Positions 2,893-12,276 of a stretch of 14,279 nt of DNA are shown here, in pieces (positions within the stretch are counted from its first letter, which is position 1; every line of letters starts with the position of its first letter). The notes below the pieces were generated by a model. It had not been told where the DNA came from. It saw only the letters and a list, made by a program, of their open reading frames with translations, and ran no database searches. This DNA is from a virus (taxonomy: Duplodnaviria > Heunggongvirae > Uroviricota > Caudoviricetes). Made by a program: the position numbers and the translations under genes. The stretch lies in the IMG/VR virus record IMGVR_UViG_3300029079_000040. One strand, written 5' to 3'.

Positions 2893-3315
2893 ATGGCAAA
2901 AGTATTTACACCAGAAGAGCGAGAAAAAATTAAAGGACAGGTTGTTGAACTTGTACCTCTGAGCGGTCGCGAGACGTTACGGCAACTGGAAGCCAAGACA
3001 GGTGAGACAAGATATCTGATGAGTGTTCTCGCCAGTGAGCTGGTTGCCAGTGGCGATGTATACAACTCTGGTTACGGGTTATTCCCGTCTGAACAGGCGC
3101 GTAAAGACTGGCAAAACGCCCGCAAAAAACTATCGAGGGCAAAGGTGAAGAAACCTGCTGTAGTTGATCCGGACCTTATCTGGTCATTACCAGACGGAGA
3201 AATACGCCGCTATGACAGGCGTCTGAATATAATCTGTCGCGAGTGCCGGAAGAGCGAAGTCATGCAGCGTGTACTGGCGTTCTATCAGGGTAATTTTCAG
3301 GATGTGCTGTTGTGA
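2893..3315 (+). CDS. Hypothetical protein, 140 aa, basic C-terminal half with a CxxC pair
   Basis: Track ORF 2878..3315; start preferred at MAKVFTPEEREK (ATG 2893) with GGAGG upstream. Function not recognised. Confidence 0.5.
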   Translation: MAKVFTPEEREKIKGQVVELVPLSGRETLRQLEAKTGETRYLMSVLASELVASGDVYNSGYGLFPSEQARKDWQNARKKLSRAKVKKPAVVDPDLIWSLPDGEIRRYDRRLNIICRECRKSEVMQRVLAFYQGNFQDVLL

Positions 3316-4101: not shown

Positions 4102-4875
4102 TTAGAACTGTTCATTGCCATCGAGGTTAGGTAGCATAATTTTTTCAATCAAGGCGAGAGCCTTTTTGTCCCGGTCAGCGAAGTATTTCGGGGCATATTG
4201 CGGCAACCAAATATTGTTAAAATGTTCTTTGAAATCTGCTAAATATTCATTTGGGTACAGCCTTGCAGGGTATACGCGACCATCGGGATATTCATGGTCA
4301 TAGGTAGGGAATGTTTTGGGTTCTACGTTTCTATTATCTCTTAACCATTGTGAAAATACTCTTCCTTGTGAAATGTCAGGAACCATTTTTTCTGGGAGTG
4401 TGTACCCTGCTTGTTCAAGAGGTGCAACCAAGTTGAATGTCAGTTCATTAAGAATAGAAAAGTGCGTGTGAGGAATTCTACTACGATTAACCATGTACCG
4501 TTTTAAATGTACAGGCATTTCTGCTGTAGTTCTTTCCCCTGACATCCATTCACGAACCCATCTTGAAACCTGGACTGCAAATTTGGGCGATAGCCACTGC
4601 GCTAGATTAATAGCGATGTCAGGATGCACCCATGTCCCTTGGTTTTCAGGTCTTCCACCTTTAAATGATTGAATTAACTCCGATATGGGAATTCCCATAT
4701 CGCGTGATAATTCGTCAAAAAACTCTTGAGTAGTTTTGAGTCTAGTGTAATCAGAGAGCAGTTTGCCCGCAGTTCTACACATTGATGTGGCGTTTATGTA
4801 ACCATCTTTGGCACGTAAATGTATTATTTCGCCGTCAATTTCACGAGAAATCAAAGATAATTGAAAGGATGTCAT
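4102..4875 (-). CDS. KilA-N domain protein, 257 aa
   Basis: N-terminal region (GYINATSMCRTAGKLLSDYTRL ... GTWVHPDIAINLAQWLSPKFAVQVSRWV) matches the KilA-N/APSES-type DNA-binding domain signature as I know it. GAGGAA 8 nt upstream of the ATG. C-terminal domain unrecognised. Confidence 0.75.
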   Translation of the reverse strand: MTSFQLSLISREIDGEIIHLRAKDGYINATSMCRTAGKLLSDYTRLKTTQEFFDELSRDMGIPISELIQSFKGGRPENQGTWVHPDIAINLAQWLSPKFAVQVSRWVREWMSGERTTAEMPVHLKRYMVNRSRIPHTHFSILNELTFNLVAPLEQAGYTLPEKMVPDISQGRVFSQWLRDNRNVEPKTFPTYDHEYPDGRVYPARLYPNEYLADFKEHFNNIWLPQYAPKYFADRDKKALALIEKIMLPNLDGNEQF

Positions 4876-5341
4876 TGAAAATTCCTCAAGTTGGAGAGTT
4901 CTGGAACATTAAGGCGAGGTGGCAGTAATGCACCATCTGTAATCTTTTGATACTGACGTAATCGGGCCTGATGTGCAACGCCTTGCAAGTATGTAACTCA
5001 TTGAAAACGATCATTTTTATCTATTGACATCAAATGGCAAACTGTCATTGTGCGGCTATGGCAAGTGGCAAATGCTTATAAATCATATGGATATAAATAG
5101 TACAGAAAGAGTTGTTTTCTCTAGGATATGAGTATACGCCCAATGCTGATTGGTTGAATTTTGTTCTTGTTTTAAAGGGTAAGAGTTTAAAGTGTTGGCA
5201 GTGATGTATTGGATAGTTAGAATTGCTGTGGGTGCTTGAGGCTATCTGCCTCGGGCATGAACACCAAAGGTAGATAGAGAAAAGCCCCAGTTAACATTAC
5301 GCGTCCTGCAAGACGTTTAACATTAATCTGAGGCCATATCT

Positions 5342-5401
5342 ATGCGACACATAGAGATTAGCCTCTTACGGACCGAAAGGTCAAGGAGAAGCAGGCTATG
5401 A
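5342..5401 (+). CDS. Short leader ORF (19 codons) ending in ATGA overlap with the hok start; possible mok-like coupling frame
   Basis: ATG 5342 to TGA 5399-5401, overlapping hok ATG 5398-5400. By analogy to mok/hok translational coupling; weak. Confidence 0.25.
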   Translation: MRHIEISLLRTERSRRSRL

Positions 5402-5523
5402 AGCAGCAAAAGGCGATGTTAATCGCCCTGATCGTCATCTGTTTAACCGTCATAGTGACGGCACTGGTAACGAGGAAAGACCTCTGCGAGGTACGAATCC
5501 GAACTGGCAGACGGAGGCTCTGA
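5398..5523 (+). CDS. hokD: Hok/Gef-family type I toxin (HokD/RelF-like N-terminus), 41 aa as read; C-terminus diverges or is frameshifted
   Basis: Translation MKQQKAMLIALIVICLTVIVTALVTRKDLCEVRIRTG-RRRL. The first 37 residues match HokD/RelF as I remember it. AGGAG 9 nt upstream. Canonical Hok proteins continue ...QTEVAVFTAYEPEE; here the +1 frame reads QTEALIRRLLI. Confidence 0.65.
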   Translation: MKQQKAMLIALIVICLTVIVTALVTRKDLCEVRIRTGRRRL

Positions 5524-5605
5524 TTCGTAGACTACTAATCTGAGTAAAAGACCCAGCGGGGAAAGAACCACGCCGGGACTAGTTAATAAGATATTTATAG
5601 CGTGG

Positions 5606-5947
5606 CTATTCTTTTTTTGCGGTATAGACTTTTTCGCCTGAGAAGTCTGGAGCTACCCAAAAGTTAATATTAAACTGAGCATCATCGCTTAGTTCAACAC
5701 GGTGCCAGTATTGTGGTGGGCTTGTTGCAAAAGCGCCAGCATTAATGACTACTTTTATCTCCGGTTCAGTAGCATTCTCATCAGCAAAACCATAATATGT
5801 TACAGTACCTTCCATCACGCATAACTGTCCAAAAACACCTGCTGCTGTATTATGATGTGTTAATAACGCTGAAGGTACGTTCTCTTTTGTGAAGAACGGA
5901 GTTGAGCGTTTGATTACCCAGTCTTTAGGAATTCTCTTGTGTGTCAT
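5606..5947 (-). CDS. YeaR-like protein (DUF1971, tellurite-resistance-related family), 113 aa
   Basis: Track ORF 5606..5971; start preferred at MTHKRIPKDWVIKRSTPFF (ATG 5947) with GGGAGGTG 5 nt upstream. Aligns by eye with chromosomal YeaR (RSTPFW..., FNIDFFVAPE-like motif FNINFWVAPD). Confidence 0.7.
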   Translation of the reverse strand: MTHKRIPKDWVIKRSTPFFTKENVPSALLTHHNTAAGVFGQLCVMEGTVTYYGFADENATEPEIKVVINAGAFATSPPQYWHRVELSDDAQFNINFWVAPDFSGEKVYTAKKE

Positions 5948-5961
5948 AACCACCTCCCATA

Positions 5962-5986
5962 AAACATGCATTATAAATGCACCTTT
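5962..5986. promoter_or_regulatory. NsrR-box-like palindrome ATGCAT-TATAA-ATGCAC immediately upstream of the YeaR-like gene
   Basis: Sequence AAACATGCATTATAAATGCACCTTT compared with the NsrR consensus AAGATGCATTT-n-AAATGCATCTT (established for E. coli, including the chromosomal yeaR promoter). The match is judged by eye. Confidence 0.35.
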
Positions 5987-6314
5987 TTGAGGGTTATGTC
6001 AAGCTGTTATGAAACACATAATTGATATGTTGATTAGAGGAGAAGATAGAATCAATATGGTTGTTTTTCGTATAACTATTTGTTTTACTTTTAGTTTGTG
6101 CATTCTGTGTGTTAGGAATAACTTATTAAAGTTTAACTAAAAAATCTCGATATAGTCCGCATAGATTACTGTTACTGAATCTTATTGTGTGCATTAGTTG
6201 TGTTCTGAAATTTCAATTTAATTACTTATGATATATTTTTAACGATAAATGTTTTCCGGGTGAAAGACAGTGGGGGATGAGATAAGCAATATATCATTAA
6301 TCTTGATTATTTCC

Positions 6315-6376
6315 AGGATGCCTTTACTGTGCATATAAATAAATCATATACGCATCAAATAATGTAAAGGCATCCT
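6315..6376. repeat. Perfect 13-bp inverted repeat AGGATGCCTTTAC / GTAAAGGCATCCT separated by 36 nt of AT-rich sequence
   Basis: Read directly from the sequence (6315-6327 and 6364-6376). The loop contains TGTGCATATAAAT; the right arm is followed by TTTTAG. Confidence 0.9.
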
Positions 6377-6814
6377 TTTAGATATATCTTATCAAATGTT
6401 AATGATTTGAGTGGGAAACATGATTCCAGAAACTAATCATGCGGCTACTTTATAAAAATAATGCCCATATAAAACAGCCAGCGAAAAGGATTACGGATAA
6501 AAAAGGAGCGAGATGTGCATAGTTGTTATTTTCCATGTTTAACCACCTTAAATAATTGATGATGACGGGATGTGCATCTGTAATGCTTTTGTTGAAATGT
6601 TATGATAAAAAAGAACTTTTTCATAACATTAAAATGTAATTTATCTAATCGTTTTTAATAATAAGTGTTGTATTTCTATCCTTGTATCAGCTATTTGATA
6701 TGTAGTGTTTGTTCATGTTATGTGGAGCTTTACACCATAGCCAGTTTATTTATACTTTATTCGTCAGCCTGAACAACTGGCATCTGCTGCACTGCGCCAT
6801 CGAGAGATTGAGAA

Positions 6815-10681: not shown

Positions 10682-10818
10682 AATCTTAACTACAATATGA
10701 TTCATTTTGATGATTGTTTCATAAGGAACAGTGAAGTAAGATCTAAGAGGAGTTAAATTTTATACAGTATAATCATAATATTGCAGCAAGGTGGTTATAA
10801 TTGAAAGAATATTTAGAT

Positions 10819-12276
10819 ATGAATACATCTCATGTAAGAGTTGTTACTCATATGTGTGGGTTCCTGGTTTGGCTCTATAGTCTTTCAATGTTGCCACCAA
10901 TGGTTGTAGCATTGTTTTATAAAGAAAAAAGCCTGTTCGTTTTCTTTATAACTTTCGTTATATTTTTTTGCATTGGTGGCGGAGCGTGGTATACAACTAA
11001 GAAATCTGGCATTCAATTACGTACCCGTGATGGGTTTATTATAATTGTAATGTTTTGGATTTTGTTTTCTGTTATTAGTGCATTCCCTTTATGGATTGAC
11101 TCAGAACTTAATTTAACGTTCATTGATGCTCTGTTTGAAGGGGTTTCTGGAATAACAACAACAGGAGCAACTGTAATTGATGATGTTAGTTCATTACCTC
11201 GGGCATATTTGTACTATCGGTCACAGTTAAATTTTATAGGTGGTTTAGGAGTTATTGTTCTGGCGGTTGCTGTATTGCCATTATTGGGTATTGGTGGTGC
11301 AAAGCTTTATCAGTCAGAAATGCCGGGGCCATTTAAGGATGACAAACTCACTCCCCGCCTGGCCGATACGTCACGGACACTGTGGATAACTTATTCTTTA
11401 TTAGGTATTGCTTGTATTGTCTGTTATAGACTTGCAGGAATGCCTTTGTTTGATGCTATTTGTCACGGGATTTCCACAGTTTCGCTTGGTGGTTTCTCAA
11501 CTCATAGCGAGAGTATCGGATATTTTAATAACTATTTGGTTGAGCTGGTGGCTGGTTCTTTTTCCCTGCTATCGGCTTTCAACTTCACTCTTTGGTATAT
11601 TGTTATTAGCAGGAAAACGATAAAACCTTTAATCAGAGATATTGAACTTCGTTTCTTTCTGTTAATAGCCTTAGGGGTGATCATTGTTACCTCTTTCCAG
11701 GTCTGGCATATAGGTATGTATGACTTGCATGGAAGTTTTATTCATTCGTTTTTTCTTGCCAGCTCCATGCTCACTGATAATGGTTTAGCTACGCAGGATT
11801 ATGCAAGTTGGCCCACGCACACGATAGTGTTTTTGCTGTTGTCAAGTTTCTTTGGGGGATGTATAGGTTCAACTTGTGGTGGAATTAAGTCACTTCGATT
11901 TCTTATACTTTTCAAACAAAGCAAACACGAGATAAATCAGCTTTCTCATCCCAGAGCGTTGTTGAGTGTAAATGTAGGAGGGAAGATAGTTACAGATCGT
12001 GTAATGAGGTCTGTATGGAGTTTCTTTTTTCTTTATACTCTCTTCACGGTGTTTTTTATACTGGTGTTAAATGGTATGGGATATGATTTTCTTACATCAT
12101 TTGCAACAGTGGCTGCATGTATTAATAATATGGGATTAGGTTTTGGGGCTACTGCATCGTCATTCGGAGTGCTTAATGACATTGCAAAATGTTTAATGTG
12201 CATAGCTATGATTCTTGGTCGCCTTGAAATTTATCCTGTTATTATATTGTTTTCAGGTTTTTTTTGGCGCTCCTAA
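10819..12276 (+). CDS. trkG: TrkG, TrkH-family potassium uptake membrane protein, 485 aa
   Basis: Multi-pass membrane protein with repeated pore-loop-like GxG motifs. Sequence from MNTSHVRVVTHMCGFLVWLY matches Rac trkG as I recall it, and the position directly after Rz/Rz1 is the Rac arrangement. Track ORF starts at TTG 10801; the ATG at 10819 gives 485 aa. Confidence 0.85.
   Translation: MNTSHVRVVTHMCGFLVWLYSLSMLPPMVVALFYKEKSLFVFFITFVIFFCIGGGAWYTTKKSGIQLRTRDGFIIIVMFWILFSVISAFPLWIDSELNLTFIDALFEGVSGITTTGATVIDDVSSLPRAYLYYRSQLNFIGGLGVIVLAVAVLPLLGIGGAKLYQSEMPGPFKDDKLTPRLADTSRTLWITYSLLGIACIVCYRLAGMPLFDAICHGISTVSLGGFSTHSESIGYFNNYLVELVAGSFSLLSAFNFTLWYIVISRKTIKPLIRDIELRFFLLIALGVIIVTSFQVWHIGMYDLHGSFIHSFFLASSMLTDNGLATQDYASWPTHTIVFLLLSSFFGGCIGSTCGGIKSLRFLILFKQSKHEINQLSHPRALLSVNVGGKIVTDRVMRSVWSFFFLYTLFTVFFILVLNGMGYDFLTSFATVAACINNMGLGFGATASSFGVLNDIAKCLMCIAMILGRLEIYPVIILFSGFFWRS

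What the first reader, a model, noticed from the sequence alone, without database searches (positions are those of the whole stretch)
5230..5605. hok/sok-type type I toxin locus whose toxin is frameshifted relative to HokD after residue 37
The ORF at 5398 encodes MKQQKAMLIALIVICLTVIVTALVTRKDLCEVRIRTG, matching the HokD/RelF N-terminus I remember, with a short leader ORF overlapping its start (mok-like coupling). After Gly37 the frame reads RRRL-stop, whereas the +1 frame continues QTEALIRRLLI-stop, which keeps the conserved QTE. That pattern suggests a single-base deletion near 5507-5509: either a pseudogenised hok, a sequencing error, or a natural C-terminal variant. The long untranslated flanks (5230-5397, 5524-5605) are where fold-back and antisense (sok-like) elements would reside. 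In K-12 hokD sits in the Qin prophage beside relBE; here it is stand-alone.
Basis: partly seen in the sequence, partly recalled or inferred. Interest (0 to 1): 0.5.

Follow-up and report, generated by a model that had tools for sequence, protein, structure and literature searches.

The report
Decayed hok/sok toxin locus in prophage
This is a real but half-eroded copy of the well-known hok/sok toxin–antitoxin module in an E. coli prophage: its regulatory front half is intact, while the toxin's tail and the RNA element that normally keeps the message silent have been lost, so it is most likely an ordinary dead toxin gene.

Summary
[quoted passage not shown] It matches Rfam sok at 101.5 bits and Pfam HOK_GEF at E=3e-16.

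The 5' half is intact and about 98.6% identical to loci with a full 51-aa HokD. It holds the promoter, the tac element, the Sok gene and target, a 19-codon mok-like leader overlapping the hok start (ATGA), the hok ribosome-binding site and codons 1-37.

The 3' half is eroded:
- An older 2-bp frameshift, a GAA>TAA nonsense change and a 3-bp deletion also disrupt the coding tail.
- The fbi element and the terminator are gone, replaced by the 3' end of a convergent DUF1971 gene.

Repairing the single base therefore gives an older frameshifted 48-aa form, not HokD.

The 41-aa allele is identical in 104 of 5,426 complete E. coli genomes and occurs in thousands of assemblies, so it is not a sequencing error. 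RefSeq already names it a Hok/Gef family protein.

The most likely reading is a pseudogenised toxin with a possibly still-expressed Sok RNA. Decay of chromosomal hok loci is well known, so interest is low.

The parts
5195..5223 (+). hok mRNA promoter, TTGGCA-17 nt-TAGAAT
   Evidence: Consensus scan, 10 of 12 matches. It lies 7 nt upstream of the start of the Rfam hit at 5230. It is conserved in the 48-aa relatives L012 and L013.
5230..5400 (+). hok mRNA 5' leader holding the tac, ucb-like, Sok-target and mok elements. The Rfam 'sok' model matches this sense strand.
   Evidence: RF01794 full-length match, 101.5 bits, E=1.6e-22. Only 4 differences from the intact hokD locus L019 over 5218-5504.
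5230..5241 (+). tac element (GGGUGCUUGAGG), the 5' partner of fbi in intact relatives; it has no 3' partner here
   Evidence: In MFE folds of intact EC-1639 hokD, L019 hokD and 933W hokW, nt 1-12 pair with the fbi sequence CCUCAACGCACCC. In the window they pair locally with nt 53-59.
5280..5348 (-). Sok-like antisense RNA gene, about 69 nt, covering the mok ribosome-binding site (GAGG 5330-5333) and the mok ATG
   Evidence: Positional homologue of the sokW misc_RNA annotated in phage 933W, AF125520. Predicted fold is a short 5' region plus a long stem-loop ending GGGGCUUUU, dG about -26 kcal/mol.
5355..5384 (-). Putative Sok promoter, TTGACC (5384-5379), 18 nt, TAATCT (5360-5355)
   Evidence: Read from the sequence. 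It falls below the threshold of the consensus scan, so it is inferred from position and homology only.
5342..5401 (+). mok-like leader ORF: 19 codons (MRHIEISLLRTERSRRSRL), stop TGA overlapping the hok ATG as ATGA
   Evidence: Translation. The leader sequence is the same in loci with intact HokD, L005 and L019.
5398..5523 (+). Truncated hok ORF, 41 aa: HokD residues 1-37 followed by RRRL and a stop
   Evidence: RefSeq annotates it as Hok/Gef family protein WP_001445775.1.
5508..5509 (+). Site of the 1-bp (C) deletion in codon 38, the most recent lesion
   Evidence: Alignments A1 and A3. L013 differs from the window over 5150-5660 only by C at 5505 and by this extra C.
5509..5547 (+). Decayed remnant of the C-terminal coding region. 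It carries a substitution cluster with a 2-bp deletion at 5518-5523, GAA>TAA at 5536-5538, and a 3-bp deletion near 5543. The ancestral stop is at 5545-5547.
   Evidence: After the stop, frame 0 reads FVDY*, a remnant of the hokW-type tail VAVFVDYESEK.
5550..5579 (.). Imperfect hairpin derived from the hok 3' UTR stem-loop. On the minus strand it is followed by UUUUAC, so it probably terminates the DUF1971 gene. Homology to hok 3' UTRs ends at about 5574.
5606..5971 (-). Convergent DUF1971/TehB-like gene that occupies the place of the hok fbi element and terminator. RefSeq calls 5606-5947.
   Evidence: Pfam DUF1971, E=3.5e-26; annotation. No complete E. coli genome has this gene next to an intact hok.

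Best explanation
[quoted passage not shown] It lies in the nin region of a Rac-like lambdoid prophage of E. coli.

Shown: the 5' half is intact and nearly identical to loci that encode full 51-aa HokD. It contains the promoter, the tac element, the Sok gene and its target, a 19-codon mok-like leader coupled to hok by an ATGA overlap, the hok ribosome-binding site and codons 1-37.

Shown: the 3' half has been destroyed in steps. An older event joined the hok 3' UTR hairpin to a convergent DUF1971 gene and removed fbi and the terminator. A 2-bp frameshift after Glu40, together with other changes, then gave a 48-aa product ending QTEALIRRLLI. A later C>T change at 5505 and a 1-bp deletion at 5508/5509 gave the present 41-aa product ending RRRL.

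Inferred: the peptide lacks the periplasmic tail, including the Tyr/Cys-46 position, so it is non-toxic or strongly attenuated. Without fbi the transcript cannot adopt the inert end-paired form and should fold directly into the open, Sok-accessible form. The stable mRNA reservoir needed for post-segregational killing therefore cannot exist. Sok RNA is probably still made. The locus is best read as a hitchhiking pseudogene remnant that spreads with the prophage.
For: - Family identity: Rfam sok 101.5 bits and Pfam HOK_GEF E=3e-16, but only profile positions 1-34 of 42.
- Closest annotated relatives are hokD and the hokW/mokW/sokW locus of phage 933W.
- Lesions were mapped against five intact loci.
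- Differences are clustered. Against L019 there are 4 in 287 nt of the 5' half and 18 of 63 columns in the 3' half (Fisher p=2e-11). Against the closest 3' relative, hokW, the 3' figure is 12 of 63 (p=5e-7).
- The fbi sequence is absent with up to 3 mismatches allowed.
- Intact relatives fold with nt 1-12 paired to fbi. The window transcript folds like EC-1639 hokD (L005) with fbi removed in silico; the other two relatives, L019 and 933W hokW, also lose the end-pairing but refold the 5' end into a different local hairpin.
- Intermediate 48-aa alleles exist in three contigs, giving the haplotype series CCGGCC > CTGGCC > CTGG-C.
- The 41-aa allele is identical in 104 of 5,426 complete genomes, with no intermediate between that and 80-90% identity.
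- Published work shows the C-terminus matters. For R1 Hok, 18 of 20 possible nonsense codons, Y48N, stop-codon loss and a C-terminal FLAG tag all abolish toxicity (PMC9841398). Position 46 carries a Cys in Hok homologues, introduced by RNA editing in HokD, and C46S abolishes the toxicity of edited HokB (PMC12214031). Replacing the Gef C-terminus with PhoA gave a non-toxic protein (cited in PMC8509063).
Against: - No experiment here tests toxicity or expression of the 41-aa peptide.
- The 41-aa allele is far commonest (2,444 blocks of the collection against 3 contigs for the 48-aa form). That could reflect selection rather than hitchhiking.
- The RNA folds are MFE predictions only.
- The real 3' end of the transcript is unknown. 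No terminator-like site was found on the + strand.
Confidence: 0.8

Rival explanations
1. The 41-aa peptide is a natural, still active C-terminal variant. The transmembrane helix alone damages or depolarises the membrane. The locus then works as a simplified toxin-antitoxin pair in which a constitutively open mRNA is held in check only by Sok.
For: The promoter, leader ORF, ribosome-binding site and residues 1-37, including the transmembrane helix and Cys15/Cys30, are intact. The allele is very widespread. [quoted passage not shown] RefSeq does not flag it as a pseudogene.
Against: In R1 Hok nearly every possible premature stop is a loss-of-function suppressor, and even Y48N or C-terminal extensions abolish toxicity. 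The Cys-46 position needed in HokB is missing. The downstream coding remnant carries several further lesions, which is typical of neutral decay. In a second genomic context the same allele has lost its leader and has a mutated ribosome-binding site (L016/L017). That pattern does not fit a maintained toxin.
Confidence: 0.1
2. The locus is kept for its Sok RNA. It would be an orphan antitoxin or anti-addiction module, or the toxin-dead open hok mRNA would act as a decoy. Either would modulate related hokD/hokW loci elsewhere in the genome or on incoming phages and phage-plasmids.
For: The 5' half is about 98.6% identical to intact loci while the 3' half is heavily eroded. The unique C>T changes at 5271 and 5316 keep G-U pairs in the sense RNA. 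Host genomes carry 2-4 sok-like places. Related hokD loci occur on P1-like plasmids and Stx phages.
Against: The asymmetry is explained just as well by mosaic recombination. The 5' half resembles the EC-1639/L019 type and the 3' half the hokW type. The decayed 3' half persists in L016/L017 without the Sok region. The same C>T changes create A-C mismatches in the Sok stem (read from the sequence). There is no expression or cross-reactivity data.
Confidence: 0.08
3. The frameshift is a sequencing or assembly artefact in an otherwise intact hokD.
For: The missing base lies in a CC dinucleotide. Three assemblies show the extra C.
Against: The sequence is identical in 104 independently assembled complete genomes, and the protein is listed in 2,444 blocks of the assembly collection. 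The alleles with the extra C still carry every downstream lesion and still lack fbi. They also differ at the neighbouring position 5505, forming a coherent mutational series.
Confidence: 0.01

Closest known systems
hokD (relF) of E. coli K-12, Qin prophage
   Same: Codons 1-37 are identical at the protein level. The DNA is identical from 5384 to 5504. Both are prophage-borne and both are incomplete hok loci.
   Different: K-12 hokD keeps the full 51-aa ORF, the fbi element and the terminator. It has lost the 5' leader, sok and mok, which are replaced by relBE upstream; homology starts at 5384. The window locus is the mirror image: 5' half intact, 3' half lost.
hokW/mokW/sokW of Stx2 phage 933W (AF125520)
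   Same: It occupies the same position in a lambdoid phage, between the early genes and the Q module. Identity is 91% over 5218-5561. SokW is annotated at the homologous place. The 3' coding remnant (TTCGTAGACTAC) is of the hokW type.
   Different: hokW encodes 51 aa, has fbi pairing with tac, and its mok is annotated as an in-frame 70-aa extension. The window has a 19-codon leader ORF ending in ATGA, a 41-aa ORF and no fbi.
hok/sok (parB) of plasmid R1
   Same: It shares the same architecture in the 5' half: tac, ucb, Sok antisense over the mok translation start, and mok-hok coupling. The model is described in PMC9841398.
   Different: R1 needs tac-fbi end-pairing and slow 3' processing for post-segregational killing. 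The window lacks fbi and a complete toxin.
Inactivated chromosomal hok loci of E. coli (hokA, hokC and hokE by IS elements; hokD by rearrangement)
   Same: Decay of chromosomal and prophage hok loci is a known general phenomenon. It is summarised in PMC12214031 and in bioRxiv 10.1101/2025.08.07.668861, which discards CDS shorter than 40 aa as degenerate.
   Different: Here the route is stepwise small frameshifts plus replacement of the 3' UTR by a DUF1971 cassette, not an IS insertion. At 41 aa the ORF just passes that length filter, and RefSeq annotates it as a normal Hok/Gef protein.

Membership tests
[quoted passage not shown] | Sequence homology of the toxin ORF to Hok/Gef (Pfam PF01848) | tested here: met
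   E=3.2e-16, 59.1 bits against a cut-off of 22. Residues 1-37 are identical to K-12 HokD.
[quoted passage not shown] | Complete toxin of about 50 aa, including the conserved periplasmic C-terminal segment (E-V-A-x-F-x-A-Y/C-E) | tested here: not met
   Only profile positions 1-34 of 42 are matched. The product ends RRRL after Gly37. The downstream remnant carries further frameshift and nonsense lesions.
[quoted passage not shown] | Antisense Sok RNA gene overlapping the mok translation-initiation region | tested here: met
   Met by homology and position only. The region matches annotated sokW, lies within the Rfam RF01794 match, and is predicted to form a stem-loop with a U tail. The promoter is weak by consensus. 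Expression was not tested.
[quoted passage not shown] | Leader ORF (mok) whose translation is coupled to hok | tested here: met
   A 19-codon ORF at 5342-5401 with an ATGA overlap and GAGG 8 nt upstream of its ATG. The same leader occurs in intact loci L005 and L019. PMC9841398 reports that mok translation up to the hok start is sufficient.
[quoted passage not shown] | Long-range tac-fbi pairing of the mRNA 5' and 3' ends, which gives the inert full-length form | tested here: not met
   fbi is absent with up to 3 mismatches allowed. Alignment shows homology ends at about 5574. No 5'-3' pairing appears in folds ending at 5585, 5625 or 5700, whereas all three intact relatives show it.
[quoted passage not shown] | Toxicity of the peptide, and post-segregational killing or Sok-dependent repression | not testable with these tools
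   This needs expression and plasmid-stabilisation assays. Published work on R1 Hok and HokB suggests loss of toxicity.

The most novel reading that the evidence does not exclude
The prophage keeps a toxin-dead hok locus because its still-expressed Sok RNA, and/or the constitutively open Sok-binding hok transcript, acts in trans on related hokD/hokW modules. These could lie elsewhere in the genome or on incoming Stx-type phages and P1-like phage-plasmids. The remnant would then work as an anti-addiction or cross-immunity RNA module and would not be a simple pseudogene.
Probability: 0.06. Interest if true: 0.55.

Novelty: already known. Interest (0 to 1): 0.15.

Why it matters
The value is mainly for annotation. 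A 41-aa ORF named 'Hok/Gef family protein' in RefSeq (WP_001445775.1) is found in thousands of E. coli assemblies, many of them carbapenemase-producing clinical isolates. It is most likely a dead toxin lacking both its C-terminal tail and the fbi RNA element, so it should not be counted as a functional type I toxin-antitoxin system in surveys. At 41 aa it just passes a 40-aa length filter. The preserved allele series (51 aa, then 48 aa, then 41 aa) is a tidy natural example of stepwise toxin decay with the antitoxin side left intact. It does not change what is known about hok/sok.

Tried and rejected
- An exact-pattern scan of the GTDB species-representative genomes for the window-specific hairpin (CCAGCGGGGAAAGAACCACGCCGG) found nothing. 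No intermediate came from other species.
- I looked for complete E. coli genomes, phage records or plasmids with an intact hok next to the DUF1971 gene. There were none.
- About 340 genomes have the DUF1971 gene with a similar hairpin but no hok (L006/L007).
- The three 'phage' records with 100% identity (vB_EcoS-666R9 and others) are PHASTER-predicted prophages, not isolated virions. They give no evidence that the prophage is inducible.
- No supplementary table of PMC9841398 is held, so the exact positions of the nonsense suppressors could not be read.
- The consensus scan found no terminator on either strand in 5100-5750. The hairpin at 5550-5579 is imperfect and was judged from folding only.
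- NCBIfam Hok models score below their cut-offs even for intact HokD, so they were uninformative.
- Sequencing error and programmed frameshifting were considered. Sequencing error is rejected. Programmed frameshifting is rejected because no slippery site is evident and the downstream frame is itself broken.

Full report
**1. What is in the sequence**

Window 5398-5523 (+) is a 41-codon ORF, MKQQKAMLIALIVICLTVIVTALVTRKDLCEVRIRTGRRRL. Pfam HOK_GEF matches it at E=3.2e-16, but only over profile positions 1-34 of 42. Rfam RF01794 ('sok') matches 5230-5400 on the + strand over the whole model, at 101.5 bits against a gathering score of 59. On this strand the model covers the hok mRNA leader, and its last three positions are the hok AUG.

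A sigma-70-type promoter, TTGGCA-17-TAGAAT, lies at 5195-5223, just upstream of 5230. A 19-codon leader ORF runs from ATG 5342, preceded by GAGG at 5330-5333, to TGA 5399-5401. Its stop overlaps the hok ATG as ATGA.

**2. Where the window comes from**

The window is E. coli DNA. The stretch 5200-5640 is 100% identical to chromosomes such as NZ_CP023820.1. The annotation there shows a Rac-like lambdoid prophage: sieB, ydaF, a cI/cro-like pair, ydaT, ydaV, then a KilA-N gene, hok, a convergent DUF1971 gene, DUF1367/DUF1364/DUF1133 (the Q module), lysis genes and trkG.

RefSeq names the ORF 'Hok/Gef family protein' WP_001445775.1 and does not flag it as a pseudogene. K-12 Rac matches about a third of the window. 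Three 'phage' records carry identical sequence, but they are PHASTER-predicted prophages from carbapenemase-producing clinical isolates.

**3. Comparison with intact loci**

I aligned the locus with K-12 hokD (relB-relE-hokD), hokD loci with a full leader (EC-1639, L005; ChlosBP-23-1, L019; STEC299, L020), a P1-like plasmid hokD (L004) and the hokW/mokW/sokW locus of 933W and a related prophage (L008, L002).

- From 5218 to 5504 the window differs from L019 at only 4 positions.
- K-12 hokD is identical from 5384 to 5504.
- From 5505 onwards the differences are dense:
  - T at 5505, a synonymous change.
  - One C missing between 5508 and 5509 (GGC CAG -> GGC AG).
  - A substitution cluster with a net 2-bp loss at 5518-5523 (GGTCGCTGTCTTC -> GGCTCTGATTC).
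  - G>T at 5536 (GAA -> TAA).
  - A 3-bp deletion near 5543.
  - Changes and a 2-bp loss in the 3' UTR hairpin.
  - Complete loss of similarity after about 5574.
- The contrast is 4 of 287 positions against 18 of 63 columns (Fisher p=2e-11). Against the closest 3' relative, hokW, it is 12 of 63 (p=5e-7).
- After the -1 and -2 events the original frame is restored and reads FVDY, a remnant of the hokW tail VAVFVDYESEK, but it then meets the new TAA.

**4. The missing 3' element**

Intact relatives carry, about 35 nt after the 3' UTR hairpin, the sequence CAGGCATCCTCAACGCACCCGC. The hokD-type loci follow it with a terminator. In MFE folds of three intact mRNAs, nt 1-12 (GGGUGCUUGAGG) pair with CCUCAACGCACCC. 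This is the tac-fbi end-pairing that defines the inert full-length hok mRNA (model described in PMC9841398).

The window has no match to this element with up to three mismatches. Folds ending at 5585, 5625 or 5700 show no 5'-3' pairing. Instead the 5' end pairs with nt 53-59, exactly as in EC-1639 hokD (L005) once fbi is removed in silico. L019 and 933W hokW also lose the 5'-3' pairing on truncation, but their 5' ends refold into a different local hairpin.

The 3' end of a convergent DUF1971/TehB-like gene (5606-5947/5971, minus strand) sits where fbi should be. The hairpin at 5550-5579 is followed on the minus strand by UUUUAC and probably terminates that gene. No + strand terminator was detected.

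**5. Natural intermediates**

A protein search returned P0002, a 48-aa protein ending ...RTGQTEALIRRLLI. It is encoded on three contigs. Their DNA keeps the C (CCGGCC or CTGGCC) but has all the downstream lesions and the DUF1971 junction.

L013 differs from the window over 5150-5660 only at 5505 and by this C. The series CCGGCC -> CTGGCC -> CTGG-C is the most parsimonious order. The 48-aa form, itself a -2 frameshift of a 51-aa hokW-like gene, is therefore ancestral, and the 1-bp deletion is the latest event.

The 41-aa protein is listed in 2,444 blocks of the assembly collection. Its 3' region is identical in 104 of 5,426 complete E. coli genomes, and the next-best matches are only 80-90% identical. 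It also occurs in a second context (L016/L017). There the whole leader, sok and mok have been replaced and the ribosome-binding site is altered. Sequencing error is excluded.

**6. Mechanism**

Shown: the promoter, leader, Sok region and the N-terminal 37 codons are intact. The toxin's tail and the fbi element with its terminator are lost.

Inferred: the peptide is non-toxic or much weakened. Published evidence supports this:
- In R1 Hok, 18 of the 20 codons that can mutate to a stop were recovered as loss-of-function suppressors.
- Y48N, loss of the stop codon (+17 aa) and a C-terminal FLAG tag all abolish toxicity (PMC9841398).
- Position 46 is a Cys in Hok homologues, introduced by A-to-I editing in HokC, HokD and HokE, and C46S abolishes the toxicity of edited HokB (PMC12214031).
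- Replacing the Gef C-terminus with PhoA gave a non-toxic protein (cited in PMC8509063).

Also inferred: an fbi-less transcript cannot form the stable inert reservoir, so post-segregational killing cannot work. The transcript should be immediately open to Sok binding and degradation.

The Sok-like gene (about 5348 to 5280, minus strand) is homologous to annotated sokW. It folds into the usual stem-loop with a U tail. Its promoter, TTGACC-18-TAATCT, is plausible but weak. Sok is probably still made, but this was not tested.

**7. Rivals**

- An active truncated toxin is possible, because the transmembrane helix and all expression signals are intact and HokC work stresses the transmembrane domain. 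The literature above, the piled-up downstream lesions and the leaderless L016 form argue against it.
- An orphan-Sok, anti-addiction or decoy role would explain the conserved 5' half, and host genomes carry 2-4 sok-like places. Mosaic recombination explains the asymmetry equally well, since the 5' half is of the EC-1639/L019 type and the 3' half of the hokW type. The decayed 3' half also persists without Sok in L016/L017.
- Sequencing artefact is refuted.

**8. Comparison with what is known, and novelty**

The locus belongs by descent to the hok/sok family. Its closest relatives are hokD and hokW/sokW. It fails two defining features that were tested: a complete toxin and tac-fbi pairing. It is the mirror image of K-12 hokD, which kept the toxin and fbi but lost the leader, sok and mok.

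Decay of chromosomal and prophage hok loci is well documented, and the ORF already has a RefSeq name. I rate it as already known and ordinary. It has minor value as an annotation caveat and as a neat stepwise-decay series.

Noticed in passing
window 4102-4875 (-): The 257-aa KilA-N protein immediately upstream of hok matches the BstA prophage-encoded abortive-infection defence family (PADLOC BstA E=3.2e-21; Pfam KilA-N; BstA_C listed for the identical gene in related loci). A live defence gene therefore sits next to the dead toxin locus.
   Followed up: partly
window 5550-5612; L006 about 2990-3060 and L007 about 2930-3000: About 340 complete E. coli genomes carry the DUF1971 gene in a prophage remnant with no hok. 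They have a similar hairpin (GAGACCCGTCGGGGATAGCCCTGCCGGGTCT) at the same distance from the DUF1971 stop. That hairpin resembles the hok 3' UTR stem-loop, so the DUF1971 terminator may have been co-opted from a former hok 3' UTR.
   Followed up: partly
proteins P0001, P0003, P0009, P0016, P0018, P0113: Several rare Hok variants diverge right after ...RIRTG(Q). P0003 reads into a translation of the fbi/terminator sequence, which implies a deletion fusing the Gln38 codon to the fbi region. P0113 looks like an independent frameshift at the same GGCCAG. The site may be a recurrent break point, or some of these may be assembly errors.
   Followed up: no
L016 and L017, 880-1130: The same 41-aa allele, with synonymous differences, occurs directly after a DUF1627 gene. 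There the entire hok leader, sok and mok are replaced and the ribosome-binding site is altered (AAGGAG -> AAGGGT). This is a further-decayed form in another prophage mosaic.
   Followed up: partly
window 5229, 5271, 5316, 5505: The substitutions that set the window's 5' half apart from the intact loci compared are C>T. Those at 5229, 5271 and 5505 are absent from every intact locus compared, whereas T at 5316 also occurs in two intact hokD loci (L019, L020). Those at 5271 and 5316 fall in stems and give G-U pairs in the sense RNA, but they would give A-C mismatches in the antisense Sok stem.
   Followed up: no
window 5972-6814: RefSeq annotates no gene in this stretch of about 840 bp between the DUF1971 gene and the DUF1367 gene. 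One predicted-prophage record calls a 43-aa hypothetical ORF near its start.
   Followed up: no
window 10801-12276 (+): The potassium transporter gene trkG lies inside the prophage after the lysis genes, as in K-12 Rac. This confirms that the window is a Rac-locus prophage variant.
   Followed up: no
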